This document shows positions 50,645 to 63,753 of a DNA stretch of 64,000 nucleotides, in pieces. Below the pieces are notes generated by a model. That model was not told the DNA's origin. It saw only the letters and a list, made by a program, of their open reading frames with translations, and did not search any database. The stretch spans positions 68,934 to 132,933 of the forward strand of contig CAZAYY010000010.1 in assembly GCA_964489525.1 (NCBI GenBank), written 5' to 3'. The stretch is from an uncultured Anaerolineales bacterium. GTDB taxonomy: Bacteria; Chloroflexota; Anaerolineae; Anaerolineales; JABWBV01. The stretch's first letter is position 1. Each line of letters starts with the position of its first letter. The translations under genes were made by a program, and so were the position numbers.

Positions 50645-50780
50645 AATCCACCTCCTAAAATGGATAAAGTGTGCAAGGCCTGGTAAGCGTTTTTTGAAAA
50701 ATAACCGGATGGGGTATGTTGGTTTCGGCACGCCTGCCAGGCCGTTTCCGGTTATTCTGTTTTTTGGCTGGTGGACAAAC

Positions 50781-51122
50781 TTATGCTTTCAAAATGTCAA
50801 CCAGGTCTTCAATTTTTCCTACGGGGAGGTTCTCGCTGGACACAACCTGGATTGTGTCTTGCTGCGAGTTCAGCCGCAGGATTTTCAAAGCCGGGTTTGA
50901 AAACATCAGTTCGCTCAGCGAACACAACTGCAAGGCTTCTGGGTCATGGGCATCCGTGATTACGGCGCTGGGGGCGCACTGATGGATACGGGCTGCAGCA
51001 TCAGCATCAAACGGATTCACCAGGCAAACCTCAATTTGCTGAGGAAATTGCTGCAAGCGCCGGGCAATTCCTTCGGCAAACAACGAGTGATTGGATAAGA
51101 TGACAACCGTTTTTACTGACAT
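50781..51122 (-). CDS. small protein with degenerate receiver-like (pseudo-receiver) pattern
   Basis: Start at ATG 51122 (MSVKTVVILSNHSLFAEGIARRL...). Alternating beta/alpha pattern like CheY, but the acidic pocket DD is replaced by SN. The assignment is weak. Confidence 0.45.
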   Translation of the reverse strand: MSVKTVVILSNHSLFAEGIARRLQQFPQQIEVCLVNPFDADAAARIHQCAPSAVITDAHDPEALQLCSLSELMFSNPALKILRLNSQQDTIQVVSSENLPVGKIEDLVDILKA

Positions 51123-51357
51123 ACAATACACCAAAACAAAAGCCACACACAGCTTTCAACAGGATTATATTAATAGAATATGAGCCGTTTGGGTATCCTC
51201 CCTTCGCGCCAAAACGGGTGTCATTAAAGATAGGTGAAAAAAAGCACAACTAACCAATAGTATTAATTGTAAATTCATCGAAAGATTGTAAAAACTTAGC
51301 CTTAAGGGTTAAATCAGGGGGGTTTTGGAGGGATTTTGGCCGGTTTTTCAAAACAGG

Positions 51358-51392
51358 ATAAATGTCCCCTGAAAACCGGGGCAAATGCCCTG
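51358..51392 (+). promoter_or_regulatory. 35-bp inverted-repeat motif copy A (AAATGTCCCC-N8-GGGGCAAATG), 34 nt upstream of the kinase gene
   Basis: 26/35 ungapped identity with 63495-63529. Shares the TGTCC(C)...(G)GGACA inverted repeat and a TGAAAA loop. Confidence 0.5.
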
Positions 51393-51426
51393 TTAGAAAT
51401 GCGGGTTTTATCTTAAAATCATATTA

Positions 51427-52941
51427 ATGTACGGGCTTAATCTGACCATTGTCTACTTTTTTTACGGCCTGGCTTTTTTTACCATGGGCGTGATTGTGCT
51501 GCTGGAGCGCGACCGTGGCTCAGACCAACGCCTGCGGCATGCTTTAGGCCCCCTGGCCGTTTTTGGGTTAGTGCATGGCGCCAATGAGTGGTTGGAGATG
51601 TTCATGAACATTGGAACCCTGCCCACGCTCGGTTCGTGGGGGTTAATCTTGAATGGGGTTCGCCTGGGCACACTGGCATTTTCGTTTATATCTTTAACCG
51701 CCTTTGGCGCATCTTTGCTTTCACCCAACGAAACCGTGCGGCGGTACAGCCTGCTGCTGCCTGTGCTGCAAACTGCGATCTGGGGGTTTGGTGTTCTCAT
51801 CTTAAAGGACCACTATACCGCCCCGCAGCGGATTTGGGATGTGGCCGATGTGTGGAGCCGCTACACCCTGGGCGTTCCCTCGGCGGTAATTGCAGCCATA
51901 GGTTTGGTTGCCCAACAGCGCGCCTTCCGCAAAGCAGGCATGGCTCAGTTTGGGCGCGACAGCCTGTATGCCGCCCTGGCTTTTGCCTGGTATGGCTTGG
52001 TGGGGCAAATATTCGTCCACCCCAGTGCGCTGCCCCCTTCAACCCACATCAACCAGGACCTGTTTTTCTTTTATTTTGGCTTTCCTGTGCAAATTTTCCG
52101 GGCGATAACGGCAGCAATTGCCGCAGCATTTGTGGTTCGCTTTTTACGTGCTTTTGAAGTGGAACGGCAGCGCCAATTAAATGAACTGCAAGAGGCCAGG
52201 GTGGAAGAAGCCAGGCGGCGCGAAATTTTGCGCGGCCAGCTACTGCGCAGGGTAGTGATGGCGCAGGAGGCCGAACGGCAGCGAGTGGCGCGGGAACTGC
52301 ACGACGAAACCGGCCAGGCGCTGACCGCAATCGGCCTGGGGCTGCGCGGCGTAACCAACTCCATGTCCTCCAACCCCGAACAGGCCGCTCAAAAAATGCG
52401 CCAGATTGAATTGATGGCCTCTCGCTCGCTGGATGAACTGCGCCACCTGATTGCCGACCTGCGCCCCTCGCACCTGGACGAATTGGGCCTGCGCGCCACC
52501 CTGCGTTGGTATTTTGGCGAGGTGCAGGCTCGCACAAAACTCCAGGTCCACCTGGAAGTTTTAGGAGATGAAGTTAACCTGCTGCCCGAAGTGCGGATCG
52601 CACTCTATCGCATCATCCAGGAATCCATCACCAACACCATCAAACATGCCCAGGCCAGCGAAATTAACGTCAAACTTGCCTATTTGCCCGCTGCTGTTCA
52701 AGCGACCATTGAAGACAACGGCCAGGGGTTCGACATGCGCAAACTGCAGCAGCCAGGCATTTATTCCTGGGGGCTGTTAGGGATGCAGGAGCGTACCTCA
52801 CTGCTTGGCGGCCAGTTTAACCTGGTTTCCTGGCCAGGCGAAGGAACCCGCATCAGTGTTACACTGCCTTACCAACCGCAGGCATTGGTAGAAAACCTGC
52901 TAGGAGATGAAGACCATGAGCACCAGAATTCTGTTGGTTGA
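51427..52941 (+). CDS. sensor histidine kinase (HisKA_3/NarL-partner type) with polytopic membrane sensor domain
   Basis: About 7 TM helices in the first 240 aa. RVARELHDETGQALTAI (H-box) and HATPase_c (EDNGQGF, GLLGMQER). Confidence 0.88.
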   Translation: MYGLNLTIVYFFYGLAFFTMGVIVLLERDRGSDQRLRHALGPLAVFGLVHGANEWLEMFMNIGTLPTLGSWGLILNGVRLGTLAFSFISLTAFGASLLSPNETVRRYSLLLPVLQTAIWGFGVLILKDHYTAPQRIWDVADVWSRYTLGVPSAVIAAIGLVAQQRAFRKAGMAQFGRDSLYAALAFAWYGLVGQIFVHPSALPPSTHINQDLFFFYFGFPVQIFRAITAAIAAAFVVRFLRAFEVERQRQLNELQEARVEEARRREILRGQLLRRVVMAQEAERQRVARELHDETGQALTAIGLGLRGVTNSMSSNPEQAAQKMRQIELMASRSLDELRHLIADLRPSHLDELGLRATLRWYFGEVQARTKLQVHLEVLGDEVNLLPEVRIALYRIIQESITNTIKHAQASEINVKLAYLPAAVQATIEDNGQGFDMRKLQQPGIYSWGLLGMQERTSLLGGQFNLVSWPGEGTRISVTLPYQPQALVENLLGDEDHEHQNSVG

Positions 52942-53566
52942 TGACCACGCCGTAATCCGCATGGGACTGCGCATGCTGCTGGAGGGGGAAGAAGACATTG
53001 AAATTGTGGGTGAAGCCGACTCCGCAAGGGAAGCGCTGCAATTTGTAAGCAAAACCCAACCCGATGTAATTTTGATGGATGTGAATCTGCCCGATAAATC
53101 TGGCATTGATGTCACCAGGGCGATCAAAGCCCAATGGCCGAAAATTGCCATTGTGGCCCTGACCATTCACGAAGACCAGGAATACTTTTTTAAAATGCTC
53201 CAGGCAGGCGCCAGCGGTTATGTCCCCAAACGGGCTGCGCCGGAAGAACTGCTCACGGCCATTCGCGCCGCTGCCCAGGGGGAGGTCTATTTATACCCAT
53301 CTATGGCCAAGCTGCTGGTGCAAGATTACCTCTCCCCAGATCAACAAGAAAGCAACAAAACCGCCCTGGACGGGCTGACCGACCGGGAGCAGGATGTTCT
53401 GGCACGCCTGGCCGATGGCGAGAGCGTGGGCGAAATTGCCGATGCTCTGTCCATCAGCCCGAAAACGGTTGCCCGCCACCGTGAAAACATCATGCGCAAA
53501 TTGAATTTGCACTCTCGAGGCGAATTGGTGCGCTATGCCATCCGCAAAGGGATTGTTGAGGCGTAA
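52916..53566 (+). CDS. NarL/LuxR-family response regulator
   Basis: ATG 52916 is preferred because AGGAG lies 9 nt upstream (the track start is 52907). RILLVDDHAVIR, DVILMDVNLPD, and the LuxR HTH LTDREQDVLARLADGESVGEIADALSISPKTVARH. Confidence 0.92.
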   Translation: MSTRILLVDDHAVIRMGLRMLLEGEEDIEIVGEADSAREALQFVSKTQPDVILMDVNLPDKSGIDVTRAIKAQWPKIAIVALTIHEDQEYFFKMLQAGASGYVPKRAAPEELLTAIRAAAQGEVYLYPSMAKLLVQDYLSPDQQESNKTALDGLTDREQDVLARLADGESVGEIADALSISPKTVARHRENIMRKLNLHSRGELVRYAIRKGIVEA

Positions 53567-53635
53567 GCGGCAGCAGGTGTGTAGTTTGTCGTGGGGGAAT
53601 TTGAGGGAAACCACAAAGGCCATGATTAAAAACAA

Positions 53636-53668
53636 ATCCTAAAGGTTTTCGAAACCTTTAGGATTTTT
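53636..53668 (+). terminator. intrinsic terminator after the response regulator gene
   Basis: ATCCTAAAGGT / ACCTTTAGGAT stem, 7-nt loop, TTTTT. Confidence 0.65.
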
Positions 53669-53705
53669 CTTAGGGTTTTCCCCGGCATGGGGTAAACAAC
53701 CCATT

Positions 53706-53745
53706 TGTGAATATGTTCACAAACCCACTTGTGACTACTTTCACA
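53706..53745. promoter_or_regulatory. two tandem perfect CRP/FNR-family-type sites TGTGA-N6-TCACA
   Basis: Site 1 at 53706-53721 (TGTGAATATGTTCACA) and site 2 at 53730-53745 (TGTGACTACTTTCACA), 24 bp centre to centre. Each sits in a 24-bp direct repeat unit CCCA(T/C)TTGTGA...TTCACAA(A/G). Confidence 0.5.
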
Positions 53746-53966
53746 AGCCCATTTTGGCTTGCCAACCATGGGTAACAAACCCCTTTTTAATGTCCCACTA
53801 ATGGGACTTTTTTGATTAAAAAGATTGGGTAAACACCGAATTTACCAAACCCTCCTTCCCTCGTACACTCAAGCTAGAACATTCGAAGAACGGCTGTGAA
53901 GGCAAAAGCCAATTCACCGTTATTTGAAAGCAAAAGTGCATGGACTGATCCATGCGGAGGTGTGAA

Positions 53967-54083
53967 ATGTCTGAAATCTTAATCCCAATTGTGCTGCTGT
54001 TCTTCTTCATCCTGCGGATTGTCATCCCCGCTGGATTGTTGCTGGCAATTGGTACCTGGCTGCAGAAGCGCTTTGCTTACTAA
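53967..54083 (+). CDS. 38-aa hydrophobic peptide (single TM helix)
   Basis: Below the ORF-track size cut-off. GGAGG 7 nt upstream of the ATG. MSEILIPIVLLFFFILRIVIPAGLLLAIGTWLQKRFAY. First gene of the plus-strand cytochrome operon. Confidence 0.45.
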   Translation: MSEILIPIVLLFFFILRIVIPAGLLLAIGTWLQKRFAY

Positions 54084-54110
54084 AGCCAAACCAAACAAAA
54101 GGAGGCCGGT

Positions 54111-54467
54111 ATGAACGAGTTGTTTGAAATTATCTCTCTGCTGATGGGATTTATGCTGCGGTTAGGGCTGCCCATTGTGGTGACGGTTCTGGGCATCATG
54201 CTGTTGCAACGGCTGGATTCCCGCTGGCAGCTCGAAGCAGAAAAGAACACCACCCTGGCAAACCTCAAACCGGGCGACTACCTGAACAAAGTTCACTGCT
54301 GGGATATTCGCGAGTGCTCCCCTGAAACCCGCTCGCAGTGTTCTGCCTATCAACAACCCGATGTTCCCTGCTGGGAAAGCCACCGAGTCGGTGGGAAATT
54401 ACAAGAATCTTGCCGCAGCTGCGCAATTCGCAAACGCGTGGTTGCCATTTCAACTGTCAATCTATAA
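54111..54467 (+). CDS. membrane-anchored Cys-rich protein (six Cys, two C-W motifs; two-CW-like domain)
   Basis: AGGAGG RBS. N-terminal TM helix, then VHCWDIRECSPETRSQCSAYQQPDVPCWESHRVGGKLQESCRSC. Confidence 0.65.
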   Translation: MNELFEIISLLMGFMLRLGLPIVVTVLGIMLLQRLDSRWQLEAEKNTTLANLKPGDYLNKVHCWDIRECSPETRSQCSAYQQPDVPCWESHRVGGKLQESCRSCAIRKRVVAISTVNL

Positions 54468-54482
54468 CACAGGAGGCATTCC

Positions 54483-55385
54483 ATGATTGCTCGTTTTATT
54501 CGCATGATTTTCGTTGGGCTTTGTTTTGCCCTGCCCTTTGGCCTGGTGACTGCGGTTGCCCAGGCTCAAACCCTTCAACCCCCCGCAGATGGCGAATGCC
54601 AGGACTGCCATGAAATCACCCAGGTCAAGTGGGCCAACAGCGCACACGGACAGGCCCTCAGCAGCCCCACCTTCCAGGCCACCTGGCAGGAAAAAGGCTC
54701 CCCGGCCGAATGTCTGGCCTGCCACACCACAGGCTTTGACCCGGAAACCGGCACCTACGCTTACGAAGGCGTTTCTTGCTCCACCTGCCACTCCTCCGAC
54801 ACGGGCAACCACCCCGATGAAATTATGCCCACGGATGTATCCTCCAGAATGTGCGGTGAATGCCACCTGGACACTTACGCCGAATGGGAAACCAGCACTC
54901 ACGGGGCAGAAAACCAAACCTGTGCCACCTGCCACGATGTTCACTCCACATCCATCAAAGCAGCCGAAGCACAGGAATTATGCCAATCGTGCCACCTCGA
55001 TGAAGTGCACTACTACCAATACACCTCGCACAGCGAAGAGGGACTGCTCTGCACCGACTGCCATGTCAATGTCTCTGGTTCAATCATGGGCGAAGGACAC
55101 GCACAGCGTAAGCACACCTTTACCGTTGACCTGAACACCTGCAACGAATGCCACAGCCAGGGGCTGCACTACCCAAGCGGGCAGTTGATGGCGGAAGCGG
55201 GCATTGGCCAGGCACCCCAACAATCTGGGCTGGCCATGCCCATTGACGGGCACACCGTGGTTGCAGAAACCACTCCGTCCAGCCCCTTCAGCTTTGCCAT
55301 CCTGGCGGCGCTGGTAGGGATGGCCGTTGGCATGGTGATCTCTCCACTGTTGGAACGCTGGTATCGCCGCAACACATCCCTCTAA
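54483..55385 (+). CDS. octahaem c-type cytochrome with signal peptide and C-terminal TM anchor
   Basis: Eight CxxCH motifs: CQDCH, CLACH, CSTCH, CGECH, CATCH, CQSCH, CTDCH, CNECH. C-terminal FSFAILAALVGMAVGMVISPLL. Confidence 0.9.
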   Translation: MIARFIRMIFVGLCFALPFGLVTAVAQAQTLQPPADGECQDCHEITQVKWANSAHGQALSSPTFQATWQEKGSPAECLACHTTGFDPETGTYAYEGVSCSTCHSSDTGNHPDEIMPTDVSSRMCGECHLDTYAEWETSTHGAENQTCATCHDVHSTSIKAAEAQELCQSCHLDEVHYYQYTSHSEEGLLCTDCHVNVSGSIMGEGHAQRKHTFTVDLNTCNECHSQGLHYPSGQLMAEAGIGQAPQQSGLAMPIDGHTVVAETTPSSPFSFAILAALVGMAVGMVISPLLERWYRRNTSL

Positions 55386-55421
55386 CCCAACCCGACAAGA
55401 AAATTCCTGGAGGTAAATCTC

Positions 55422-56222
55422 ATGGAAGAGACCAAAACCCAAAGCACCAAGCCCCGCTTGCGCATCAACCGGCGTGAATTCGTCAAAATCGCCGCACTGG
55501 GCACAGCCGCCGCTCTGGCACCAGCCCTGGCAAAAAACACCCTTGCTTCGCCTTCTTATGCACACGCCCCACACGGCAGCCCCTACCGCTGGGCTATGGT
55601 CATTGACCAGGGCAAATGCGTGGGATGCAACTACTGCGTGAAAGCCTGCAACGCCAACAACGACACCAACCCCGACATTAAGTGGATCAAGATGTACGAA
55701 ACTCAGGAACTGCGCGGCGGAAAAACCTACCTGCCGGTGGCCTGCCAACACTGCGCCAACCCGCCTTGCGTGGGGGCCTGCCCGGTTCAAGCCACGTACC
55801 AACGAGCCGACGGAATTGTGATGATGGATTACGACCGCTGCATCGGCTGCCGCTACTGTGAAGTAGCCTGCCCATACGGCGCACGCTCGTTCAACTGGGA
55901 AAGCTTCAAAGACGAAAACCCTTACGTACCCGCCTACGGCACACCAAATGTACCTCGCCGAGAACGCGGCGTTATTGAAAAATGCACCTTCTGCTACTCC
56001 AAAATTGACCGGGGCCTCGAACGCGGCCTGGTTCCTGGCGTGGACGCAGCAGCGACCCCGGCCTGTGTGCTGGCTTGCCCGCATGGCGCCCGCTTGTTTG
56101 GCGACTTGAACGACCCCGATTCCCCCGTCAGCAAAGCACTTGCCGAAAACCACTATTTCCGCCTGCAGTCGGATTCTGGCCTTGAACCCAGGGTTTATTT
56201 CTTGCCTGCTCGCAAATCATAG
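55422..56222 (+). CDS. Tat-exported 4x[4Fe-4S] ferredoxin subunit (NrfC/PsrB/DmsB-like)
   Basis: Twin-arginine signal RINRREFVKIAALGTAAALA. Cys clusters CVGCNYCVKAC, CQHCANPPCVGACP, CIGCRYCEVACP, CTFC...CVLACP. Confidence 0.9.
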   Translation: MEETKTQSTKPRLRINRREFVKIAALGTAAALAPALAKNTLASPSYAHAPHGSPYRWAMVIDQGKCVGCNYCVKACNANNDTNPDIKWIKMYETQELRGGKTYLPVACQHCANPPCVGACPVQATYQRADGIVMMDYDRCIGCRYCEVACPYGARSFNWESFKDENPYVPAYGTPNVPRRERGVIEKCTFCYSKIDRGLERGLVPGVDAAATPACVLACPHGARLFGDLNDPDSPVSKALAENHYFRLQSDSGLEPRVYFLPARKS

Positions 56223-56232
56223 GAGATTGAAG

Positions 56233-57492
56233 ATGGTCGCAGCATTACGCAACTTCCAATTTACACGATTTCATGCCTGGGTACTTTTCCTGGGGGCTGT
56301 CATTCTTTCCGGTCTGGTAGCCGCAATTATGGTCTTTGCCCAGGGTTTGTGGATCACCAACCTGAACGACCTGGTGCCCTGGGGCTTATGGATTGGCATT
56401 GACCTTTCTTCCATCGCACTCAGTGCAGGCGCTTTCCTGCTTTCCGCTGTGGTGTACCTGGTTGGCATCAAAAAGTTTGAACCCATCGCTCGCACGGCTG
56501 TGTTTGTGGGCCTGATTGGTTACTCCATGGCGCTGATGACGCTGATTATGGACATTGGCCGCCCCGACCGCTTCTGGCATGCCCTGGCCTTCTGGAACTA
56601 CCACTCACCGCTCTGGGAAGTGTCCATGTGTATCGCCATGTACTTCACCGTGCTGCTGCTGGAAGCCATGCCCATCATCGCTCGCTGGGAGTGGCTGGCA
56701 AAAACCTTCCCCGTGCTGGCCAAAAAGATGACCCACATTCACCACTACGCTCCGGTTCTCGCCATTGCTGGCCTGGCCCTTTCGGTAATGCACCAATCAT
56801 CCCTCGGCGCAATGTACGGGATTATGAAAGCCCGCCCAATTTGGTACCGCCCCAGCATGGCAGGCATGTTCATCCTCTCGGCGATGATTGCCGGGCCCGC
56901 CCTGACCCTGCTGATTTCCATGATCTCCGCCCGCCTGACCGACCGGGCCAAAGTGAACGATAAACTGGTGGAACAAGTTAGCTACTATATCGGTTGGGGA
57001 CTGGTCGCCATGCTTTATGTCCGCTTTTGGGACACCCTGGCCATGCACTACACCTACCAACCCGGGCGCACCGAAGGTCTGGAAATGCTGACCAAAGGTC
57101 AGCTGGCCTTCAACTTCTGGGGGCTGGAAATTTTCCTCGGCATCTTGCTGCCACTGGTGGTGCTGCTTACGGGCAAACTGCGCCGGATTCCGGTGGTGCG
57201 AATGATTGCCCTGGCCTCTGTGGTAATTGGGCTGATCGCCTTCCGCTGGGATACCAACATGGTCGGGCAGTTGGTGGTTTTTACCAATCTTTCGCAAACC
57301 TATGTGACCGGTTTTACCAGCTACACCCCGAATTTGATTGAAATTTTAGTTGGTGGCGCAGTGGTTGGCTATGGCATGCTCGCCATTTCACTCGGCATTC
57401 GCTACCTGCGGCTGGTGGACCACACCGACGTTCACGGCGAACATGAAGAAGCCCATGTTGAGCAGATGGTGCTCAGCCCTGCTGCCGATTGA
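56233..57492 (+). CDS. NrfD/PsrC-family polytopic membrane quinol-interacting subunit
   Basis: Start at ATG 56233 (AGGAG upstream), 11 nt after the Fe-S gene stop. About 10 TM helices. Gene order follows the NrfC-like gene. Confidence 0.85.
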   Translation: MVAALRNFQFTRFHAWVLFLGAVILSGLVAAIMVFAQGLWITNLNDLVPWGLWIGIDLSSIALSAGAFLLSAVVYLVGIKKFEPIARTAVFVGLIGYSMALMTLIMDIGRPDRFWHALAFWNYHSPLWEVSMCIAMYFTVLLLEAMPIIARWEWLAKTFPVLAKKMTHIHHYAPVLAIAGLALSVMHQSSLGAMYGIMKARPIWYRPSMAGMFILSAMIAGPALTLLISMISARLTDRAKVNDKLVEQVSYYIGWGLVAMLYVRFWDTLAMHYTYQPGRTEGLEMLTKGQLAFNFWGLEIFLGILLPLVVLLTGKLRRIPVVRMIALASVVIGLIAFRWDTNMVGQLVVFTNLSQTYVTGFTSYTPNLIEILVGGAVVGYGMLAISLGIRYLRLVDHTDVHGEHEEAHVEQMVLSPAAD

Positions 57493-57520
57493 TTGACTTT
57501 GCCTCTCATTTTCTCCTCCT

Positions 57521-57556
57521 TCCAAACCTGCCGTGCAAAATTGCACGGCAGGTTTG
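57521..57556. terminator. 16-bp perfect hairpin between convergent operons
   Basis: CCAAACCTGCCGTGCA-AAAT-TGCACGGCAGGTTTGG. Only a weak T-run follows. Confidence 0.5.
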
Positions 57557-57758
57557 GTTATAAGGGAATCGGTAAAAATGGTTTGTAACTGCGTTTTTTT
57601 TTACCGGAAATATTTGCGGATTTGTGCGAAGGGTGGTTTGGAACCTTAATCCTGCTGGTACGGGCGCAAGGTCAGGCTGGCAACTCACAGCACACTCGCC
57701 CCTCCACCCCTCACCGCCCAAACGATTAAGCCCGATTTGTCGTGCGCCAATTAAACGA

Positions 57759-57799
57759 TTCTGGCCGGTCGGGGTTCAAAACCCACAAACCGGCCAGAA
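57759..57799 (-). terminator. hairpin downstream of the minus-strand cytochrome operon
   Basis: TTCTGGCCGGT ... ACCGGCCAGAA (11-bp arms), 35 nt after the stop at 57834. Confidence 0.45.
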
Positions 57800-57833
57800 A
57801 ATCAATGGCATTTTAGGGAGAATTTATCCGGGA

Positions 57834-59561
57834 TTATTTTTCTGGCGCGCCTGCTTGAATCCAGGCCTGCAATGCTTCCAACTCATCGCCTAACATTTTG
57901 CCAAAATGGGGGGTAGATTGGGTTTGGCGAGTGAAAACCGGGCTGGCAGCAGGGTCACCCGGAACCAGGCCAGGCCCACTGCTTCCGCCTGCCAATGCGC
58001 CCGTATAAGTACTCAGGTCCAGGCTGCCTTCCGGATCTATCCCGCTATGACAGAAGATGCAGCGTCCATCAAAAACCGCCTTAAAAGTATCATCATAGGT
58101 TTGAGGGGCGCCAGGAATCAGGAAGGGGCTGGTGTTGAGCAAAATGTAGAGCTGTTGGTCCAAAATGGCAGTAAGCTCAGGCGCATTCAGGCCAATATAT
58201 TCCCAATCAGCGCCATGGCAGGCTTCATTACCACAGAAAGAGGTATCAATGGGTGGTTTGCCTTCCAACTTGGTGTAGAGAATTTTCGGGTCGCTGGGTG
58301 TGTGGCAGGCGGCACACGAGGAGTCAATCGCCTTACCATGCAGAGCGATCCAACTGCTGTGCGTATGGGATGCGGGCTGCTGTCCGGTGACAATTTCAAT
58401 ATTGCTGGTGAGTGCGCCGGGTTTGGAAATCACAGGTATGGCATGGCAAAGGTTGCACTCTAACCGGATGGCTTCCTGGGTAGAGGTGAGGTGTTTGCCA
58501 TCATGGCAGCGGAAGCAGCCAGGATCATCTTTGTGCCCCAGGTTGTTCGGGTGGGTGTCCCAATCAATAAGCTGGTCAGGAAAAACAATTTGGTTGTAGA
58601 TATCCTTCAAGGTAAAGACTGCCTGGTCAATTTCAGCCTGGCGGCTGGCATAAACTTCTGGGTAGTTCGCCTGGTAGTAAGCCGGCAGAGAATCAATCGC
58701 ATCGATGGCATCTGCGGCTTGTTCGTAAGATTTGTCAATGGCTTCTACGGCCAGTTGGTAAATGAAGGGCAAATCGGTGGAAATGAGCTGCTTTTTGATT
58801 GCCTCTGAAACCGCCTCTTCAGGTGTTGGCATGGAATGGGTTACTCGATTGTGGCAGGTAATGCAGTCCATCCGCTGCAGCGTGGCCCCGGCAACGTCGT
58901 TTGGTGTCAGCCCAGAAGCCAGGTCATAATATTCTTTGATGGTGCCATCCGGGTTGACAACGCGCACATAAGGAATCTCTTGCTCGCGGTCATCGGTAGC
59001 AAGGTAATAAACCTCACTTTCGATATGCCAGTGAATCCCAAGGCCCAGGCCTTCGCGCTGGCTTCCACCGCCTGTTTTCAGCACCAGGAAAGTGCTTTGG
59101 GGGGTGTTGGCTTCGTTATTCTGGTAGCTTCGCAGTTCCCGCAGGCTGTCATCGGAAAATTTTTCAGGGAAGTGACAGGTTTCGCAAGTCTCACGGGCCG
59201 GGCGCATGTTTTTGGCGTGGATTGGGTATTCGTAATCCTGTGTCACCATCACAACGACATGGCGCAGGTCGCCTGCTTTACGTGAAATACGGGTAGCGAT
59301 GAAGTCGCGTCCAATGTGACATTCAACACATTGAACCCGGGCATGCGGAGAACGCAGGTAAGCACTATACTCTGGCGGCATGGTATGGCAGGAAGTTCCA
59401 CAAAATTCGGTGGAATTGGTGTAATCCCAAACATAGGCACCCGCAGTCAGCATGGTCAGCGTGAGCACACCCAAAACTGCAAAGGGCATCAGGCGCAGGG
59501 CGACCGGTGTGCCCGGTGGGGGCAGAAAGAACCGTTTAATTGCAGTCCAAATAACCTTCAT
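57834..59561 (-). CDS. membrane-anchored multihaem cytochrome: NapC/NirT-like N-terminus plus further haem domains and a C-terminal PSCyt-like monohaem domain
   Basis: ATG 59561 with AGGAGG 5 nt upstream. N-terminal TM helix. Seven CxxCH motifs plus CGTSCH (CX3CH) and CGNEACH (CX4CH). C-terminal CIFCHSG...LDLSTY...GGSSGPGLVPGDP...WIQAGAPE. Confidence 0.88.
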   Translation of the reverse strand: MKVIWTAIKRFFLPPPGTPVALRLMPFAVLGVLTLTMLTAGAYVWDYTNSTEFCGTSCHTMPPEYSAYLRSPHARVQCVECHIGRDFIATRISRKAGDLRHVVVMVTQDYEYPIHAKNMRPARETCETCHFPEKFSDDSLRELRSYQNNEANTPQSTFLVLKTGGGSQREGLGLGIHWHIESEVYYLATDDREQEIPYVRVVNPDGTIKEYYDLASGLTPNDVAGATLQRMDCITCHNRVTHSMPTPEEAVSEAIKKQLISTDLPFIYQLAVEAIDKSYEQAADAIDAIDSLPAYYQANYPEVYASRQAEIDQAVFTLKDIYNQIVFPDQLIDWDTHPNNLGHKDDPGCFRCHDGKHLTSTQEAIRLECNLCHAIPVISKPGALTSNIEIVTGQQPASHTHSSWIALHGKAIDSSCAACHTPSDPKILYTKLEGKPPIDTSFCGNEACHGADWEYIGLNAPELTAILDQQLYILLNTSPFLIPGAPQTYDDTFKAVFDGRCIFCHSGIDPEGSLDLSTYTGALAGGSSGPGLVPGDPAASPVFTRQTQSTPHFGKMLGDELEALQAWIQAGAPEK

Positions 59562-59687
59562 CACAACCTCCTTGTAAGAACACAGTTTGTGAAAAAAATC
59601 GCAACCTGTCCCAGGAACGCTGAGAGCCTGCCTGCGGCAGACTCTCAGCCCTCCCCGATTAAATTTTCAACAGCCTTTGAACGACTG

Positions 59688-60851
59688 CTATTCTTCCGGT
59701 GCGCCGTTGGCAATCCAGATTCGGATGGCTGCGGCCTCGCCAGGGGTCAGGCGCCCGGCATGCGAATCCATACGGGTTGGCCAAATGACCACAAGGCTGA
59801 CACCCGGCCCGCCGGGCACAATCGCCGGACCCGAATCGCCACCTTTAAAGGCGCCTGCCAGGGTTTCCAGGTCGAGGTTGGCCTCACCATTACGAGGGTT
59901 ATGGCAGTCGGCACAGCGGTTAGTAAACACGGCGCCAATGCCGTTTGCCCAGGTATCCCCATACAACCGGGCACTCTCGGGCACAGGCGCACTGGGCGGG
60001 CGCGGGGTTGGGGTCAGGGGAACAAATACTTCAACCTTTTCCAGTTCTGGCACGGCCGCTACGGCGGTTTGTTCGCTGGCCACGAACCAGACAATCCCAA
60101 CAATCCACACCAGAGCAACCAGACCATACCCAATCGCAAAGCGAGTTTTGCGCTGTTGAACGCGGGTGGGGTCATCTTTGAGCGGGGGCGGGGCGTGCAG
60201 CGCCAATGGGTGTTCGTGTTCCATTTCCTTGCGGGAAAGATACCCCGTATACATGCTTTTGTTAAACATCTTCACGAACACGCCGTAAAAATGCCAAAGC
60301 ACAATGGAAAGTGCAGCCAGGACGGCCTCACCACCGTGGGCAGCCTTGGCTGCCGGGATAAGCTCGCCGGGGAAAAGTTCTGCCGCGGTGATGGGATTCC
60401 ACATGAAAAAGCCGGTAACCACCATCACAATGGTGCCCCAAATCAAAGCCCAGTATTCCATCTTCTCTTCAAAGGTATAGAATCCTTGCTTAGGCGGGGT
60501 TTTGGCAAAGCCAAAGTTATATTTCAACGTTTCCCAACCATTTTTTACATCATCCAAACCCGGCAACATCGTCAACGGGCCGCGCTTTACATACCAGTGG
60601 TAAATGGCATAACCGATATGCCACAAGGTAACGACGAAAAGCACAACCGCCGAAATTCGGTGGATAATGCGGGTAATTTCGATCCCTCCCAGGAGGTTGA
60701 TAATAAACACCGATATCCCAGCATCCAGGTATTTTTGCGGCAAACCTGTGATAACGAGGATAATGAACGAAATCCCGTTGGTCCAATGCTCAATCCGGCG
60801 AATGAGCGGGAAGCGCAAATAGCGTTCTGGAATTTTTTCGCTCGTGCTCAT
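59688..60851 (-). CDS. b-type cytochrome (Ni_hydr_CYTB/FdnI-like 4-TM) fused to a C-terminal PSCyt-like c-type haem domain
   Basis: ATG 60851 with GGAGGA upstream; the previous stop is at 60853. RRIEHWTNGISFIILVITG, HRISAVVLF, a further TM helix, then CADCHNPRNGEANLDLETL..GGDSGPAIVPG...WIANGAPEE. Confidence 0.8.
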   Translation of the reverse strand: MSTSEKIPERYLRFPLIRRIEHWTNGISFIILVITGLPQKYLDAGISVFIINLLGGIEITRIIHRISAVVLFVVTLWHIGYAIYHWYVKRGPLTMLPGLDDVKNGWETLKYNFGFAKTPPKQGFYTFEEKMEYWALIWGTIVMVVTGFFMWNPITAAELFPGELIPAAKAAHGGEAVLAALSIVLWHFYGVFVKMFNKSMYTGYLSRKEMEHEHPLALHAPPPLKDDPTRVQQRKTRFAIGYGLVALVWIVGIVWFVASEQTAVAAVPELEKVEVFVPLTPTPRPPSAPVPESARLYGDTWANGIGAVFTNRCADCHNPRNGEANLDLETLAGAFKGGDSGPAIVPGGPGVSLVVIWPTRMDSHAGRLTPGEAAAIRIWIANGAPEE

Positions 60852-60852
60852 G

Positions 60853-62040
60853 CTACTTTTCCTCCGAATGCGCATCTGTATGACTGTGTTGATATCCACC
60901 GCGAATATAGCGCCGGTAGAAATCTGAAACAACAAAGATGCTCATGAAGCCCAGCACGCCAGGAATGAACAGCTTGTAGAACAGGTCCACCAGATAAACA
61001 ATGGTATGGTTTTCCAAATCAGGTTCGTAGTGACTGAGCCAGGAATCGGAAAAATTTGGGGTGGCATCGGGGTGGCAGTTCTGGCACGTGGAGAGGATAT
61101 TTTGCTTGATTAGCTCGACAGATGCTGCGTCGCCCGGGTCAACAATATTATGGACACCATGGCAGTCAATACATACCGGTTTGTTGGTTTCCTGGTCAGG
61201 GGTGGTCTTTTCAAAAATGGTGACGGTCGTCCCGTGAAAATCGGCAATGTAGGTATCGAACACGTTGGTGTTGATATCGTAACGTGCCATCATCTCTTCG
61301 TCCGTGTGGCACTCCGCACAAATGGTGGGCGAGTGGAGTTTGAAGCCCTCCTGAACAATGGGACCGACATTCCCGTGATTATCGTGGCAGTCGGCGCAGG
61401 TTGGTACATCGGGATTAAAGTCTTCCACCAGTGCGGTACCGTGGACACTATCTTTGTACAGGTCATAGATGCTGCTGTGGCACTTCTGGCAGGCAAGGGC
61501 GATTTTGGCGCGAGAGCCGCCAAATTCCTCAATGCTGTGGGAACCGTGACAATCAGAGCAAACGGCAGCGTTCTGGTCTCCTTCAGCCAGCAGAATAGCG
61601 TGGTCGCCAGCTTTGTAAATATCATAAACCGGCTGGTGGCAGGTGCCGCAGGTTTGGTTCATTCGAATGGTTGCCTCGCGGGCGGTTTGCGGGGTGAAAT
61701 CATCGTGGGGGTAGCCAGTGATGTCGGTATGGCACTGCACACACGCATACTTCAGGCGTCCGTGAATGGAAGTTTTATAGAGAACGGAATCAACGGTCAG
61801 ATTCAAAACCTCACCGCTGGGCAGCGGCATGTACATCTCCGGCTGCTCGTGGCATTCCAGGCATTGATCGTTGCTCATGGGCACCACACCAATGGGCGGA
61901 GGGGGGGTGGAAGATGGGCTATCCGCCGCCAGTGTTGGGGCGGCTGAAAGCGCCAGCAGAACAATCGCTGTGAGCAGCGCAGCAACCAGCCAGGCCCAAC
62001 TGGGTGGGGAAAGCTTTCCATGGGTTTGCTTAGGCGTCAT
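60853..62040 (-). CDS. nonahaem c-type cytochrome with signal peptide and C-terminal TM anchor
   Basis: Nine CxxCH motifs: CLECH, CVQCH, CGTCH, CSDCH, CQKCH, CADCH, CAECH, CIDCH, CQNCH. ATG 62040 is preferred (AAGGAG 7 nt upstream). The alternative ATG 62073 overlaps the upstream stop (TAATG). Confidence 0.85.
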   Translation of the reverse strand: MTPKQTHGKLSPPSWAWLVAALLTAIVLLALSAAPTLAADSPSSTPPPPIGVVPMSNDQCLECHEQPEMYMPLPSGEVLNLTVDSVLYKTSIHGRLKYACVQCHTDITGYPHDDFTPQTAREATIRMNQTCGTCHQPVYDIYKAGDHAILLAEGDQNAAVCSDCHGSHSIEEFGGSRAKIALACQKCHSSIYDLYKDSVHGTALVEDFNPDVPTCADCHDNHGNVGPIVQEGFKLHSPTICAECHTDEEMMARYDINTNVFDTYIADFHGTTVTIFEKTTPDQETNKPVCIDCHGVHNIVDPGDAASVELIKQNILSTCQNCHPDATPNFSDSWLSHYEPDLENHTIVYLVDLFYKLFIPGVLGFMSIFVVSDFYRRYIRGGYQHSHTDAHSEEK

Positions 62041-62072
62041 AACACGCTCCTTAGGTTCGTAGTGGGGTTCCA

Positions 62073-63353
62073 TTACGAATCGGGGGTTGCAGTTGGTTCA
62101 GGTGCCGGAGTGGGCTCGGGGGTGGGTTGTGGCGGGGTGTGGTAGCCACGAGCAGCGGTTGCCAACATGTCCATATCCTTTTCAGTCGCCAATGGACCAT
62201 GGCAGTGTTTGCAGGCATAGTCCAGGGTGATGTAGGGCATTGCATATTCCCCATCGGCGCTGAACTGAGCAGCATTCGGGTTGGGGTTAATCGAAAAGAC
62301 ATGCGAACTCAGGTCACCGGTAAAGCGATCGAGGTTACCAACAGCCGAAAGACCGGTGGGCGGCATATGGCAATCGGTGCAGAACAGGGCAAAGTGTTTA
62401 CGAACAGCGGAATATGCGGCCTGTTCCCAGTGGCAGGTATCACAGGTTTGTGTGATGCCAGCGTTGGGGTTAAGCGTAACATCCGTGTAAACGCTGCTGG
62501 AGTGAGGATCGTGGCAGCCAATACAACCAATCGCAAAGTGTTCATTGTTGTGAAGCTGGTCATACTGCACATACTGTTCCGAAAAACCATCGGCAGCATC
62601 GATGCGAGAGTCGCCGCGTGAGTGGCATTCTCCACACGCCTGGGAACTGCGGTCAACTTCCATGGCAACGCCATAAGGGTCAGCCACATGCAGGCTGCCC
62701 GGTCCATGACAGGCTTCGCACTGCACACCTTCAAAGGCCCAGGTACCAATCAGGCCGGGTTTGTCATCCTGGAAGCCCCTGGTGCTGTAGCCAGTGGTAT
62801 GGCATTGCCCACAGCTGAAGGCCAGGTTTTCCGGATTACCATGGTAGGGTGCCCAACTGGGATTCAGTTTTAGGGTTGAATTGGCAAGGTTGTATTGGCT
62901 GAGGTAATCGGCAACGCCAGTCTGCCCGGGCGGGTTGGCAATCAGATAGCCATCCTGGTTGACAAACTGGGCTTTCCAGGCAAAACCACCAATCACATAG
63001 GCGATATCATCCCACGAATACCCTTCGGGGGGATTGGGTACGCCGCCAGTCTGCCCGTCATATGGGAAAACCGGGGCAGCGCCTTCGATTTTGGTGAGGT
63101 TATAGGGGTGACCGGAAAGCTGGTATTTGGTGTAAGCATCCTCATGACACTCAGCACACTTACCCACCCCGACATATTCCCTGCTCACGACAGCGTCATC
63201 GCCCGGAGGGCCGGCAGGCCCTTGTGGCCCGGCGGGGCCTGCTGGACCGATAGGCCCAGGTTCAGGGGCCGATTGCGTTCCGGCACAACCGACCAGCAAT
63301 AAGGCCAGCACACCAAGAAGGGCGATCATCATTAATGTTTGTTTAAATTTCAT
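62073..63353 (-). CDS. octahaem c-type cytochrome lipoprotein with short collagen-like G-X-Y tract and Pro/Thr-rich C-terminus
   Basis: AAGGAGAA RBS. Lipobox LLLVGC. GPIGPAGPAGPQGPAGPPG. Eight CxxCH motifs: CAECH, CGQCH, CEACH, CGECH, CIGCH, CDTCH, CTDCH, CKHCH. Confidence 0.88.
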   Translation of the reverse strand: MKFKQTLMMIALLGVLALLLVGCAGTQSAPEPGPIGPAGPAGPQGPAGPPGDDAVVSREYVGVGKCAECHEDAYTKYQLSGHPYNLTKIEGAAPVFPYDGQTGGVPNPPEGYSWDDIAYVIGGFAWKAQFVNQDGYLIANPPGQTGVADYLSQYNLANSTLKLNPSWAPYHGNPENLAFSCGQCHTTGYSTRGFQDDKPGLIGTWAFEGVQCEACHGPGSLHVADPYGVAMEVDRSSQACGECHSRGDSRIDAADGFSEQYVQYDQLHNNEHFAIGCIGCHDPHSSSVYTDVTLNPNAGITQTCDTCHWEQAAYSAVRKHFALFCTDCHMPPTGLSAVGNLDRFTGDLSSHVFSINPNPNAAQFSADGEYAMPYITLDYACKHCHGPLATEKDMDMLATAARGYHTPPQPTPEPTPAPEPTATPDS

Positions 63354-63438
63354 CAGGCTTTTCTCCTTCTGGACGCCAAAAGATTAATGTAAGGTGAAGT
63401 GCAAGTAATTATACATATATTTCCAATTCCGGGTAGTA

Positions 63439-63529
63439 TGACAAATGTCCCGCTGAAGAAGGGACATTTGTCATGAAAAAACAGGACGAAAATGGCAAAT
63501 GTCCTGTGAAAATGGGGACAAATGGACTG
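63439..63529. promoter_or_regulatory. two further copies of the TGTCCC/GGGACA inverted-repeat motif in the divergent cytochrome-operon/ccmE intergenic region
   Basis: Perfect palindrome TGACAAATGTCCC-N9-GGGACATTTGTCA (63439-63473). The 35-bp copy at 63495-63529 is 26/35 identical to 51358-51392. An extra CAAATATTTG palindrome lies at 63531-63540. Confidence 0.5.
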
Positions 63530-63584
63530 GCAAATATTTGAATATATTGATATGATGGTGTTTACAATCAAATACGTGGAGAGG

Positions 63585-63613
63585 ATGGGCGAGATGCTTT
63601 CTCGCCCATTTTT
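63585..63613 (+). terminator. terminator-like hairpin in the ccmE upstream region
   Basis: ATGGGCGAG-N7-CTCGCCCAT followed by TTTT. About 140 nt upstream of ccmE. Strand-specific: the T-run is on the plus strand only. Confidence 0.4.
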
Positions 63614-63753
63614 CGTCAACCCAAATGGTTTCTAAACGAACCTTAATCAATACAACAGGGAGGGAAAACCCCTGACGGTATAATCGGTTGTGAGGCGAAA
63701 GTCTTTCCACAAAAACACGCAATGAGTAACTATCTTATTTTTTGGAGGCAAGT

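What the first reader, a model, noticed from the sequence alone, without database searches (positions are those of the whole stretch)
51358..63529. Shared inverted-repeat motif (AAATGTCCC-N8-9-GGGACAAAT, loop TGAAAA-like) links the kinase promoter, the cytochrome/ccmE divergent promoter region and the NrfCD-operon upstream region
Copies occur at four places. 51358-51392 lies 34 nt upstream of the HK gene. 63439-63473 is a perfect 13-bp-arm palindrome. 63495-63529 shows 26/35 ungapped identity to the first copy, including the spacer TG(TG)AAAA. A shorter AATGTCCCA-CTAA-TGGGAC followed by T6 lies at 53789-53813. All sit in the island's intergenic regions and nowhere else in the 64 kb that I noticed. 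Conservation of both arms and loop suggests one of two things. It could be a dimeric regulator site, with the island's own NarL-type RR the obvious candidate, giving autoregulation plus control of the cytochrome and ccm operons. Or it could be a transcribed RNA hairpin.
Basis: seen in the sequence. Interest (0 to 1): 0.6.

Follow-up and report, generated by a model that had tools for sequence, protein, structure and literature searches.

The report
Tandem DosR-type activator boxes, three promoters
The "shared hairpin" is really a pair of short palindromic protein-binding boxes sitting just upstream of three promoters (a sensor-kinase operon, a multihaem cytochrome operon and a promoter facing the cytochrome-maturation gene ccmE). 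It closely resembles the DosR hypoxia-regulator sites of Mycobacterium tuberculosis and is most likely read by a DosR-like regulator encoded elsewhere in the genome, not by the neighbouring regulator.

Summary
Three of the four reported copies are real and homologous: A 51355-51391, B 63438-63474, C 63492-63528. The fourth (53789-53813) is a terminator-like hairpin of different geometry.

Each real copy is two 14-bp self-palindromic boxes (consensus GGGAC-AWWT-GTCCC) with a fixed 23-bp period. That is why it reads as both a direct and an inverted repeat. A sigma-70-type -10 hexamer lies 26-28 nt beyond the proximal box in all three copies. It does so too in many independent copies from metagenomes. 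This puts the boxes at about -42.5 and -65.5, a class-II activator position upstream of the predicted transcription starts. Only copy B folds as a long RNA hairpin, and there is no Rfam match.

Box sequence, tandem layout and position match the Dev boxes of M. tuberculosis DosR.

In other genomes the motif is co-inherited with response regulators carrying a DosR-like recognition helix: an Anaerolineae paralogue pair (HK'-RR', 5 of 5 loci) and an acidobacterial family. A strict core of the motif has no hit in 1.32 Mb around 79 homologues of the island's own kinase. A looser two-box scan finds ATGAC-type versions upstream of three distant orthologues. Those loci instead share a different operator (TGGGG-N6-CCCCA), also present before the window's nrfCD operon.

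Verdict: a regulator site, but probably input from a DosR-like paralogue. It is a new member of a known kind.

The parts
51355..51391 (+). Copy A: distal box A1 51355-51368 (AGGATAAATGTCCC), 9-bp A-rich spacer, proximal box A2 51378-51391 (GGGGCAAATGCCCT). Box centres are about -65.5 and -42.5 relative to a start at 51427.
   Evidence: It lies in the divergent gap between orf121/the 773-aa cytochrome (- strand) and the kinase (+ strand).
51414..51419 (+). Predicted -10 hexamer TAAAAT of the kinase/regulator operon. It lies 26 nt after the A2 core and 7 nt before the ATG at 51427, so the mRNA is probably leaderless. A weak -35-like CTGTTA (51390-51395) overlaps the end of A2.
   Evidence: Read from the sequence. 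The same layout, a -10 hexamer 5-7 nt before the ATG, is seen in kinase orthologues L004, L005, L007 and L049. -10-like hexamers are enriched at this offset.
51427..53566 (+). Island two-component operon: membrane histidine kinase (HisKA_3, 51427-52941) and NarL/GerE-type response regulator (probable start 52916, end 53566). It is the predicted target of copy A.
63438..63474 (-). Copy B: boxes B1 63438-63451 (ATGACAAATGTCCC) and B2 63461-63474 (GGGACATTTGTCAT), a perfect palindrome with 14-nt arms. It serves the - strand promoter of the multihaem cytochrome operon. Box centres are about -43.5 and -66.5.
63408..63415 (-). Predicted extended -10 (TGTATAAT on the - strand) of the operon encoding cyt426, cyt406, cytochrome b and the NapC-type cytochrome. 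It lies 28 nt beyond the B1 core. The start codon is at 63353 and is preceded by GGAGAA.
   Evidence: Read from the sequence; offset statistics; gene content.
63492..63528 (+). Copy C: boxes C1 63492-63505 (ATGGCAAATGTCCT) and C2 63515-63528 (GGGACAAATGGACT). It faces the + strand. Box centres are about -65 and -42.
63527..63556 (+). Promoter-like site: CTGGCA, 18 nt, then TG-TATGAT (-10 at 63551-63556), 26 nt after the C2 core. The predicted start is near 63563, about 190 nt upstream of ccmE (63754).
53789..53813 (+). NOT part of the element.

Best explanation
Each copy is a composite operator made of two 14-bp palindromic boxes. The ideal box is GGGAC-AWWT-GTCCC. Box centres are 23 bp apart and separated by an A/T-rich 9-bp spacer.

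**Proposed mechanism.**
- Two dimers of a phosphorylated NarL/GerE-family response regulator bind side by side.
- The promoter-proximal dimer sits at about -42.5 and overlaps a weak -35 region. There it can contact sigma region 4 and the RNA polymerase alpha subunit and activate transcription (class II activation).
- The distal dimer at about -65.5 stabilises binding cooperatively.

**The three promoters served.**
- The island's own kinase/regulator operon, whose mRNA is probably leaderless.
- The divergent multihaem cytochrome operon (cyt426, cyt406, cytochrome b, NapC-type cytochrome).
- A + strand promoter upstream of ccmE.

**The likely binder.** It is probably not the island's own regulator. 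It is more likely a DosR/DevR-like paralogue (here called RR', partnered with a related membrane kinase HK') encoded outside the 64-kb window. RR' would then sit above the island's two-component system in a two-tier cascade.

**What is shown.** Motif anatomy, its position relative to -10-like hexamers, its co-inheritance with DosR-like regulators in other genomes, and the lack of strict-core hits around island-kinase homologues.

**What is inferred.** Protein binding, activation rather than repression, the existence of RR' in this genome, and the signal sensed.
For: **Anatomy and geometry**
- The three copies share register and the 23-bp period.
- TANNNT hexamers peak 26-28 nt after the proximal core. 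They occur on 17 of the 86 sides counted (43 copies, both directions), against a background of about 1.9 per offset. Fourteen of the 17 are outside the window.
- Copy A's -10 lies 7 nt before the ATG, and orthologous kinases show the same leaderless layout. This puts the boxes at -42.5 and -65.5.

**Match to DosR**
- DevR promoters always carry at least two tandem boxes. Class I boxes are centred at -42.5 and -63.5, and DevR reads GGGACT in each half-site (PMC3177182).
- The DosR transcription complex has its box centred at -43.5. Residues K179, K182 and N183 read GGGACT/TGTCCC, and the protein contacts sigma region 4 and the alpha C-terminal domain (PMC13486717).

**Co-inheritance with DosR-like regulators**
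- Five of five independent Anaerolineae HK'-RR' loci with upstream DNA carry TGACAnnTGTCCC-N9-GGGACA upstream of HK' (L129, L141, L142, L144, L145).
- In the four of these where the RR' helix is readable it is SEKTVRNY(V/I)S. The L129 regulator is cut by the contig end.
- The best solved relative of RR' is DevR (3c3w, E 1.5e-52). The window regulator's best is VraR, with DevR fourth.
- An acidobacterial regulator family with helix EKT(V/I)RN has the two-box motif next to the regulator gene in L107, L135, L137 and L139/L140.

**Specificity**
- The strict inner core has no hit in 1.32 Mb around 79 island-kinase homologues. It has 2 hits in the window and is present at the RR' and acidobacterial loci.

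**Other contexts of the motif**
- Multihaem cytochromes, cytochrome c, ferrochelatase and a PFOR-like gene. This is an anaerobic/redox theme.
Against: - No DosR-like regulator is encoded in the 64-kb window. The rest of the genome could not be read.
- Three distant orthologues of the island kinase (L043, L049, L051) carry a similar two-box element (ATGAC-N4-GTCAT) at the same 26-nt offset upstream of the island-type kinase. L049 has hybrid boxes before its nrfCD operon. This is also compatible with binding by the island-type regulator.
- The period is 23 bp, not the 21 bp of DevR. The HK' promoters place the boxes 29-44 nt from the -10, so the geometry is not uniform.
- All promoters and transcription starts are predictions from sequence. 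I did not test the 26-28 nt peak formally.
Confidence: 0.55

Rival explanations
1. Same operator and same mechanism, but the binder is the island's own NarL-type regulator (52916-53566). This is positive autoregulation plus control of the cytochrome and ccm promoters.
For: - It is the only regulator gene in the window's island, and there is no paralogue in the 64 kb.
- Autoregulation is common for two-component systems, including devRS (PMC3177182).
- Two-box elements sit at the same offset upstream of island-type kinases in L043, L049 and L051.
- In other genomes the orthologous promoters (upstream of cyt406 and of the kinase) carry the island-wide type II operator. The two motifs therefore occupy equivalent places.
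- The two box types have the same overall shape (G3-N8-C3), and hybrids exist (GGGACATTTACCCC in L049).
Against: - The recognition helix SPKTVARHRENIM is conserved in about 55 orthologues. Their loci share type II boxes (TGGGG-N6-CCCCA) and show no strict type I core.
- The window boxes score below 5 bits against the type II matrix.
- The helix lacks the K182/N183 equivalents. A K182G change abolishes DevR binding (title of reference 36 in PMC13486717).
- DevR is only the fourth-best solved relative of this protein.
- L043 and L051 promoters carry both motif types side by side, which suggests two different proteins.
Confidence: 0.25
2. The boxes are bound by an unrelated transcription factor (for example a CRP/FNR-type, LysR-type or XRE-cupin protein). 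The association with DosR-like regulators is then coincidental co-regulation of redox genes.
For: - The 5-N4-5 layout and the -41.5-type position also fit FNR-like class II sites.
- Two dyads at about -65 and -42 resemble LysR recognition and activation sites (my own knowledge).
- An XRE-cupin gene flanks the motif in L097 and lies in L142.
Against: - No such gene is consistently adjacent.
- The half-site GGGAC is the one read by DosR.
- The motif is conserved precisely at RR' promoters and next to an unrelated acidobacterial DosR-like regulator family.
Confidence: 0.1
3. The elements are transcribed and act as RNA hairpins in 5' leaders (a stability, attenuation or protein-binding element).
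For: - Copy B forms a 15-bp stem (-23.3 kcal/mol, z -7.1).
- The G-T juxtapositions in A and C would be G-U pairs on the + strand (read from the sequence).
Against: - A folds as two separate small hairpins and C folds at -7.5 kcal/mol (z -1.25). The three copies therefore share no structure.
- Related copies keep the box consensus, not arm complementarity. The outer arms are direct repeats.
- There is no Rfam match.
- -10-like hexamers lie downstream of the elements at a fixed offset.
- Copy A ends only 34 nt before a start codon whose mRNA is probably leaderless.
Confidence: 0.04
4. It is a genome-wide repetitive palindromic (REP-like) element or a chance similarity with no regulatory role.
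For: Only 64 kb of the genome could be read. A-B and B-C raw identities (24/37) fall within the null range.
Against: - All three copies are intergenic and abut promoters.
- No partial copies occur elsewhere in the window.
- The same architecture recurs at homologous promoters in other phyla with a fixed offset to the -10.
Confidence: 0.03

Closest known systems
Dev boxes of Mycobacterium tuberculosis DosR/DevR (NarL-family regulator; class I promoters such as tgs1-Rv3131 and hspX)
   Same: - Palindromic box with GGGAC half-sites in a 5-N4-5 layout. I count 12 of 14 positions shared with the core GGGACTWWAGTCCC.
- Always at least two tandem boxes, one strong plus one degenerate.
- The proximal box is centred at -42.5/-43.5 and overlaps a weak -35, with the second box about two helical turns upstream.
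- The regulated set includes a two-component operon and redox/respiratory genes (PMC3177182, PMC13486717).
   Different: - The centre-to-centre distance is 23 bp, not 21.
- The inner positions are A-WW-T rather than T-WW-A.
- Here the boxes precede a two-component system whose regulator is not DosR-like.
- The partner kinases are polytopic membrane proteins without GAF domains (no Pfam match N-terminal to HisKA_3).
- The host is Chloroflexota. Binding has not been tested.
OsdR/OsdK of Streptomyces coelicolor (DevR orthologue)
   Same: It has a 16-nt palindrome, AGGGCCGATCGGCCCT, with the same GGGxC-N4-GxCCC layout. Sites cluster around the regulator's own locus and stress/hypoxia genes (PMC5069765).
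   Different: The half-site is GGGCC rather than GGGAC. No fixed two-box 23-bp architecture is reported in the passages I read. The host is an actinobacterium.
NarL 7-2-7 heptamer sites (TACYYMT-N2-AKRRGTA) of E. coli
   Same: Sites for dimers of a GerE-type helix-turn-helix regulator, built as short inverted half-sites with a 2-4 bp centre. They control anaerobic respiration and nrf/ccm genes (my own knowledge).
   Different: The half-site sequence is unrelated. No TACYYMT heptamers are visible in the sequences of copies A-C.
Island-wide type II operator found here (ATGGGG-TNAAYA-CCCCAT)
   Same: The same overall shape (G3-N8-C3 with an A-rich centre). It is intergenic, lies in front of the same cytochrome-island operons, and a proximal copy abuts the -35 of the nrfCD promoter.
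   Different: The half-site is GGGGT rather than GGGAC. It is conserved next to the island regulator in about 40 genomes. Copies A-C score below 5 bits against its matrix.

Membership tests
DosR/DevR-type tandem operator (Dev boxes) | Palindromic box whose half-sites carry GGGAC(T), with the G and C of GAC essential | tested here: met
   - B1, B2 and C2 each carry one exact GGGAC/GTCCC half-site. A1 carries GTCCC, A2 has GGGGC and C1 has GTCCT.
- Ideal copies GGGACAAATGTCCC occur in L130 and L137.
- I count 12/14 shared with GGGACTWWAGTCCC (consensus recalled from memory; half-site given in PMC3177182).
- The outer half-sites in the window are degenerate (ATGAC, GGATA, TGGAC).
DosR/DevR-type tandem operator (Dev boxes) | At least two boxes in tandem on the same face of the helix (21 bp centre to centre in DevR class I promoters) | tested here: inconclusive
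   The tandem pair is present in all three copies and in all related copies. The period is 23 bp (22-23 in Acidobacteria), which is 2 bp longer than in DevR. Whether the phase is equivalent is untested.
DosR/DevR-type tandem operator (Dev boxes) | Proximal box overlaps the -35 region, centred near -42.5/-43.5 | tested here: met
   The proximal centres are -42.5 (A), about -42 (C) and about -43.5 (B) relative to predicted starts. -10-like hexamers are enriched 26-28 nt after the core. The transcription starts are predicted, not mapped.
DosR/DevR-type tandem operator (Dev boxes) | Bound by a phosphorylated NarL-family regulator whose recognition helix has the K179/K182/N183 equivalents | not testable with these tools
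   - No such regulator is in the window.
- The island regulator has K/A/R at these positions.
- Regulators next to the motif in other genomes have K/R/N.
- DevR is the best solved relative of RR'.
DosR/DevR-type tandem operator (Dev boxes) | The cognate two-component operon is itself preceded by the boxes (autoregulation) | tested here: inconclusive
   This holds for HK'-RR' in 5 of 5 loci. In the window the boxes precede a different, paralogous two-component operon.
Intrinsic terminator / structured RNA hairpin | A stable stem-loop shared by all copies, with compensatory changes; for a terminator, a following U-run | tested here: not met
   For A, B and C, only B folds into the long hairpin, related copies do not keep arm complementarity, and there is no Rfam match. 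The feature is met only by the separate element at 53792-53807 plus T6.
REP-like / dispersed repetitive palindrome | Many copies per genome with no promoter bias | tested here: not met
   There are three copies in 64 kb, all abutting promoters, and no degenerate copies elsewhere. The whole genome was not available.
NarL 7-2-7 sites | Inverted TACYYMT heptamers with a 2-bp spacer | tested here: not met
   No TACYYMT heptamer is visible in the sequences of copies A-C. The consensus is from my own knowledge.

The most novel reading that the evidence does not exclude
Anaerolineae run their multihaem-cytochrome/NrfCD respiratory islands through a two-tier cascade of paralogous two-component systems. 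Both kinases share an undescribed polytopic membrane sensor domain.

- A DosR-like regulator (RR') acts through tandem GGGAC boxes. It switches on the island's own kinase/regulator pair, a cytochrome operon and cytochrome c maturation.
- The island regulator then acts through a second operator (TGGGG-N6-CCCCA) on nrfCD and other cytochrome operons.
- Rex-like sites add an NADH input at the window's nrfCD promoter.

The same DosR-type box pair also serves an unrelated regulator family in Acidobacteria. The DosR operator architecture would then be ancient and widespread well beyond Actinobacteria.
Probability: 0.4. Interest if true: 0.55.

Novelty: new member of a known kind. Interest (0 to 1): 0.42.

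Why it matters
This would give a concrete, testable wiring diagram for a widely conserved but uncharacterised respiratory gene island of uncultured Anaerolineae. The island comprises multihaem cytochromes, an NrfCD-type module and ccm genes. The diagram names which promoters are co-controlled, from which positions, and by which class of regulator.

It would also extend the DosR-type operator logic, known from mycobacterial dormancy, to Chloroflexota and Acidobacteria. That logic is tandem GGGAC boxes at about -42 and -65.

Finally, it points to two paralogous membrane kinases with an undescribed sensor domain as the likely redox or oxygen sensors. The result is useful rather than surprising, because the mechanism is a familiar one.

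Tried and rejected
1. **Nine-mer half-site search.** Treating CAAATGTCC as the unit was not informative: 20 hits against 22 expected by chance.
2. **Orthologous kinase promoters.**
   - The upstream regions of about 55 orthologues are not alignable, and the full motif (up to 2 mismatches, spacers 8-12) is absent from 1.3 Mb.
   - Only the distant L043, L049 and L051 have a related two-box element.
   - The two-box scan alone is statistically weak: 8 hits against 0-5 in shuffles.
3. **One operator family or two.**
   - I first thought the window boxes and the island-wide GGGG-N6-CCCC boxes were one family.
   - The type II matrix scores the window boxes below 5 bits, and the two types co-occur at single promoters.
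   - I now treat them as two operators. Hybrids keep some doubt alive.
4. **G3-N8-C3 pattern.** A bare scan for this pattern is not specific.
5. **Reaching the source genome beyond the window.** Exact look-ups of the cytochrome and regulator proteins either failed or gave only 1-3 kb Logan contigs. The metagenome scan did not contain the source organism.
6. **Metagenome pattern hits.** Of the 54, many are chance or coding-region hits, for example eight copies of one termite-gut gene and six of another gene.
7. **DegU half-site.** A resemblance to TAAATGNC (recalled from memory) was considered and dropped in favour of the closer DosR match.
8. **ANTAR-type two-hairpin RNA.** Considered and rejected, because the loops are 9 nt, the regulator is not ANTAR, and the folds are not conserved.
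9. **L009.** It encodes both two-component systems, but no type I box lies upstream of its HK'.

Full report
**1. The observation**

The window region holds a respiratory gene island:
- a 773-aa multihaem cytochrome (48410-50731, - strand);
- a HisKA_3 histidine kinase (51427-52941) and a REC+GerE response regulator (probable start 52916);
- a cytochrome/NrfC/NrfD operon (54483-57492);
- a - strand operon encoding a NapC-type cytochrome, a cytochrome b and two multihaem cytochromes (57834-63353);
- ccmE, starting at 63754.

- A pattern derived from them finds nothing else in 64 kb, even with three mismatches. That test is circular.
- In a non-circular test, A and C are reciprocal best 37-mer matches in the window at 27/37. 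Random 37-mers have a mean best match of 23.
- The fourth "copy" (53789-53813) is a 6-bp GC stem with a 4-nt loop followed by T6. It is terminator-like and has neither the cores nor the spacing of the others.

**2. Anatomy**

Aligned in register, each copy is two 14-mers separated by nine A/T-rich bases:

| Copy | Distal box | Spacer | Proximal box |
|---|---|---|---|
| A | AGGATAAATGTCCC | ctgaaaacc | GGGGCAAATGCCCT |
| B | ATGACAAATGTCCC | gctgaagaa | GGGACATTTGTCAT |
| C | ATGGCAAATGTCCT | gtgaaaatg | GGGACAAATGGACT |

For B the order shown is + strand order, so its promoter-proximal box is the left one.

- Each 14-mer is itself a palindrome of the form xxGAC-AWWT-GTCxx.
- A palindromic unit repeated directly is also an inverted repeat. 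This explains why A and C look direct (CAAATG...CAAATG) while B looks perfectly inverted.
- As RNA, only B forms the long hairpin (-23.3 kcal/mol). A folds as two separate small hairpins and C is near background. No Rfam family matches.

**3. Position relative to promoters**

- In A and C a -10-like hexamer (TAAAAT, TATGAT) starts 26 nt after the proximal CAWWTG core. In B, TGTATAAT lies 28 nt beyond the core on the - strand.
- Copy A's -10 ends 7 nt before the kinase ATG. Orthologous kinases show the same leaderless layout. The boxes are therefore centred at -42.5 and -65.5.
- I scanned public metagenomes for the motif and obtained 54 loci.
  - Some are chance or coding-region hits.
  - About 20 extend the palindrome beyond the pattern.
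- Over all 43 distinct copies, read in both directions (86 sides), TANNNT hexamers peak at offsets 26-28. They occur on 17 sides against a background of about 1.9 per offset, and 14 of the 17 are outside the window.
- The element is thus a promoter-upstream, class-II-type site that lies upstream of the predicted transcription starts.

**4. Who goes with the motif**

*Association with DosR-like regulators*
- The metagenome copies sit next to multihaem cytochromes, a cytochrome c, ferrochelatase and a PFOR-like gene. Several sit next to HisKA_3/NarL-type two-component genes.
- Two of these regulators (L107, L135) belong to an acidobacterial family.
  - Their recognition helix is EKT(V/I)RN.
  - Orthologous loci L137 and L139/L140 again carry one to three copies of the two-box motif beside the regulator gene.
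- L129 and L121 belong to a large Anaerolineae family paralogous to the island kinase, here called HK'.
  - All five independent HK' loci with upstream DNA carry TGACAnnTGTCCC-N9-GGGACA upstream of HK'.
  - Where readable, the partner regulator RR' has the helix SEKTVRNY(V/I)S.
  - The best solved relative of RR' is DevR/DosR (3c3w, E 1.5e-52).

*The island's own two-component system*
- The island kinase has thousands of homologues. The whole island is syntenic in dozens of Anaerolineae MAGs.
- In 1.32 Mb around 79 such loci the strict core of the motif never occurs.
- Those loci share a different operator, ATGGGG-TNAAYA-CCCCAT.
  - It gives 72 strong hits in the 955 kb of the 60 closest of these loci.
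  - Nearly all are intergenic, in front of the nrfCD, cyt773, cyt406, cyt426 and kinase genes.
  - The window has it at 53688-53705, 53767-53784 and 53823-53840.
- The window's A/B/C boxes score below 5 bits against that matrix.
- The island regulator's helix (SPKTVARHRENIM, conserved in all clades) lacks the Lys182/Asn183 equivalents. Its best solved relative is VraR, with DevR fourth.

**5. Comparison with what is known**

- DevR/DosR promoters always have at least two tandem Dev boxes. In class I promoters these are centred at -42.5 and -63.5 on one face of the helix, and each half-site is GGGACT (PMC3177182).
- The 2026 cryo-EM structure of the DosR transcription complex places the box at -43.5. 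Residues K179, K182 and N183 read GGGACT/TGTCCC, and DosR contacts sigma region 4 and the alpha subunit (PMC13486717).
- Streptomyces OsdR uses AGGGCCGATCGGCCCT (PMC5069765).
- The window motif matches this family in half-site, 5-N4-5 layout, tandem pairing and position.
- It differs in three ways:
  - the period is 23 bp rather than 21;
  - the inner bases are A-WW-T rather than T-WW-A;
  - it precedes a two-component operon whose own regulator is not DosR-like.

**6. Most likely mechanism**

- Two dimers of a DosR-like NarL-family regulator bind the two boxes cooperatively.
- From -42.5 the proximal dimer recruits RNA polymerase to three weak-(-35) promoters: the island kinase/regulator operon, the cyt426 cytochrome operon, and a + strand promoter upstream of ccmE.
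- The binder is most likely an RR' paralogue encoded outside the window (confidence 0.55). This makes a two-tier cascade in which the island regulator then acts through the type II boxes.

Reasons to hold back:
- No RR' is visible in the 64 kb.
- L043, L049 and L051 have related ATGAC-type box pairs at the same offset upstream of island-type kinases, and L049 has hybrid boxes.
- Binding by the island regulator therefore keeps about 0.25.
- An unrelated factor (0.10), an RNA hairpin (0.04) and a REP-like or chance element (0.03) are minor rivals.

**7. Verdict**

The favoured binder is probably wrong, the RNA alternative is not supported, and this motif does not establish the NrfCD link. It is a new member of a known kind (a DosR-type tandem operator) in a new phylum. 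The interest is moderate, and lies mainly in a testable regulatory map for a conserved, uncharacterised respiratory island.

Noticed in passing
window 53688-53705, 53767-53784, 53823-53840 (with -35-like TTTACC and -10 TACACT at 53864-53869): There is a second operator, ATGGGG-TNAAYA-CCCCAT ("type II"). It is conserved in the gap between the regulator gene and the orf118-cytochrome-nrfCD operon in most of the ~24 orthologous islands whose gap I read. It also lies upstream of cyt773, cyt406, cyt426 and some kinase genes: 72 hits in 955 kb, nearly all intergenic. It is probably the island regulator's own site.
   Followed up: partly
window 53705-53722 and 53729-53746: Two tandem palindromes, TTGTGAATATGTTCACAA and TTGTGACTACTTTCACAA. 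The first matches the Rex operator consensus TTGTGAANNNNTTCACAA exactly and the second differs at one position (consensus in e.g. PMC5355995). They lie between type II boxes upstream of the nrfCD operon. They were not seen in the orthologous gaps I examined.
   Followed up: partly
window 63585-63616 (hairpin) and 63585-63635 (small ORF): A strong terminator-like hairpin lies between promoter C and ccmE: ATGGGCGAGA-tgctt-TCTCGCCCAT followed by TTTTTCG (-21.9 kcal/mol, z -5.8). It starts about 22 nt after the predicted start. It overlaps a 16-codon ORF (MGEMLSRPFFVNPNGF) preceded by GGAGAGG. A further TATAAT lies at 63681-63686. Promoter C may therefore make a short RNA or leader rather than ccmE mRNA.
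   Followed up: no
window 53629-53671: A long hairpin (20-nt arms, 90% complementary, 3-nt loop) followed by a T-run lies about 60 nt after the regulator's stop codon. It is probably the real terminator of the kinase/regulator operon. Orthologues have a terminator at the same place.
   Followed up: no
window 51427-52270 (kinase residues 1-280); also L129, L141-L145: The roughly 280-residue N-terminal region of the kinase has no Pfam match. It is strongly conserved, with invariant Y13, G14, H50, E54, W55 and others among 22 orthologues. The paralogous HK' family shares it at about 30% identity over the full length. It is an undescribed sensor domain tied to cytochrome islands.
   Followed up: partly
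L001-L060 (for example L005 5616-21461) and window 48410-63353: The whole island is syntenic across dozens of Anaerolineae MAGs: cyt773, kinase-regulator, orf118-cyt300-NrfC-NrfD, NapC-type cytochrome, cytochrome b and cyt406/cyt426. Some genomes (L001, L004, L005, L007, L036) add a further NarL-type pair next to orf121-cyt773. L009 carries both the island pair and HK'-RR'.
   Followed up: partly
L139 6692-6728, 6917-6952, 7561-7597; L137 6699-6734: In Acidobacteria (Pyrinomonadaceae/Blastocatellia-like contigs) the same two-box motif occurs one to three times just downstream of a NarL-type regulator gene. In L139 the boxes lie upstream of a single-domain receiver gene and a 184-aa unknown protein, and in L137 upstream of a large SpaA-domain protein.
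   Followed up: partly
window, unlocated: In the null test, two random 37-mers had near-perfect second copies elsewhere in the window (34/37 and 36/37). The 64 kb therefore contains at least one other real repeat pair that I did not locate. GGGCAAAACCACCC occurs at both 1376 and 4470.
   Followed up: no
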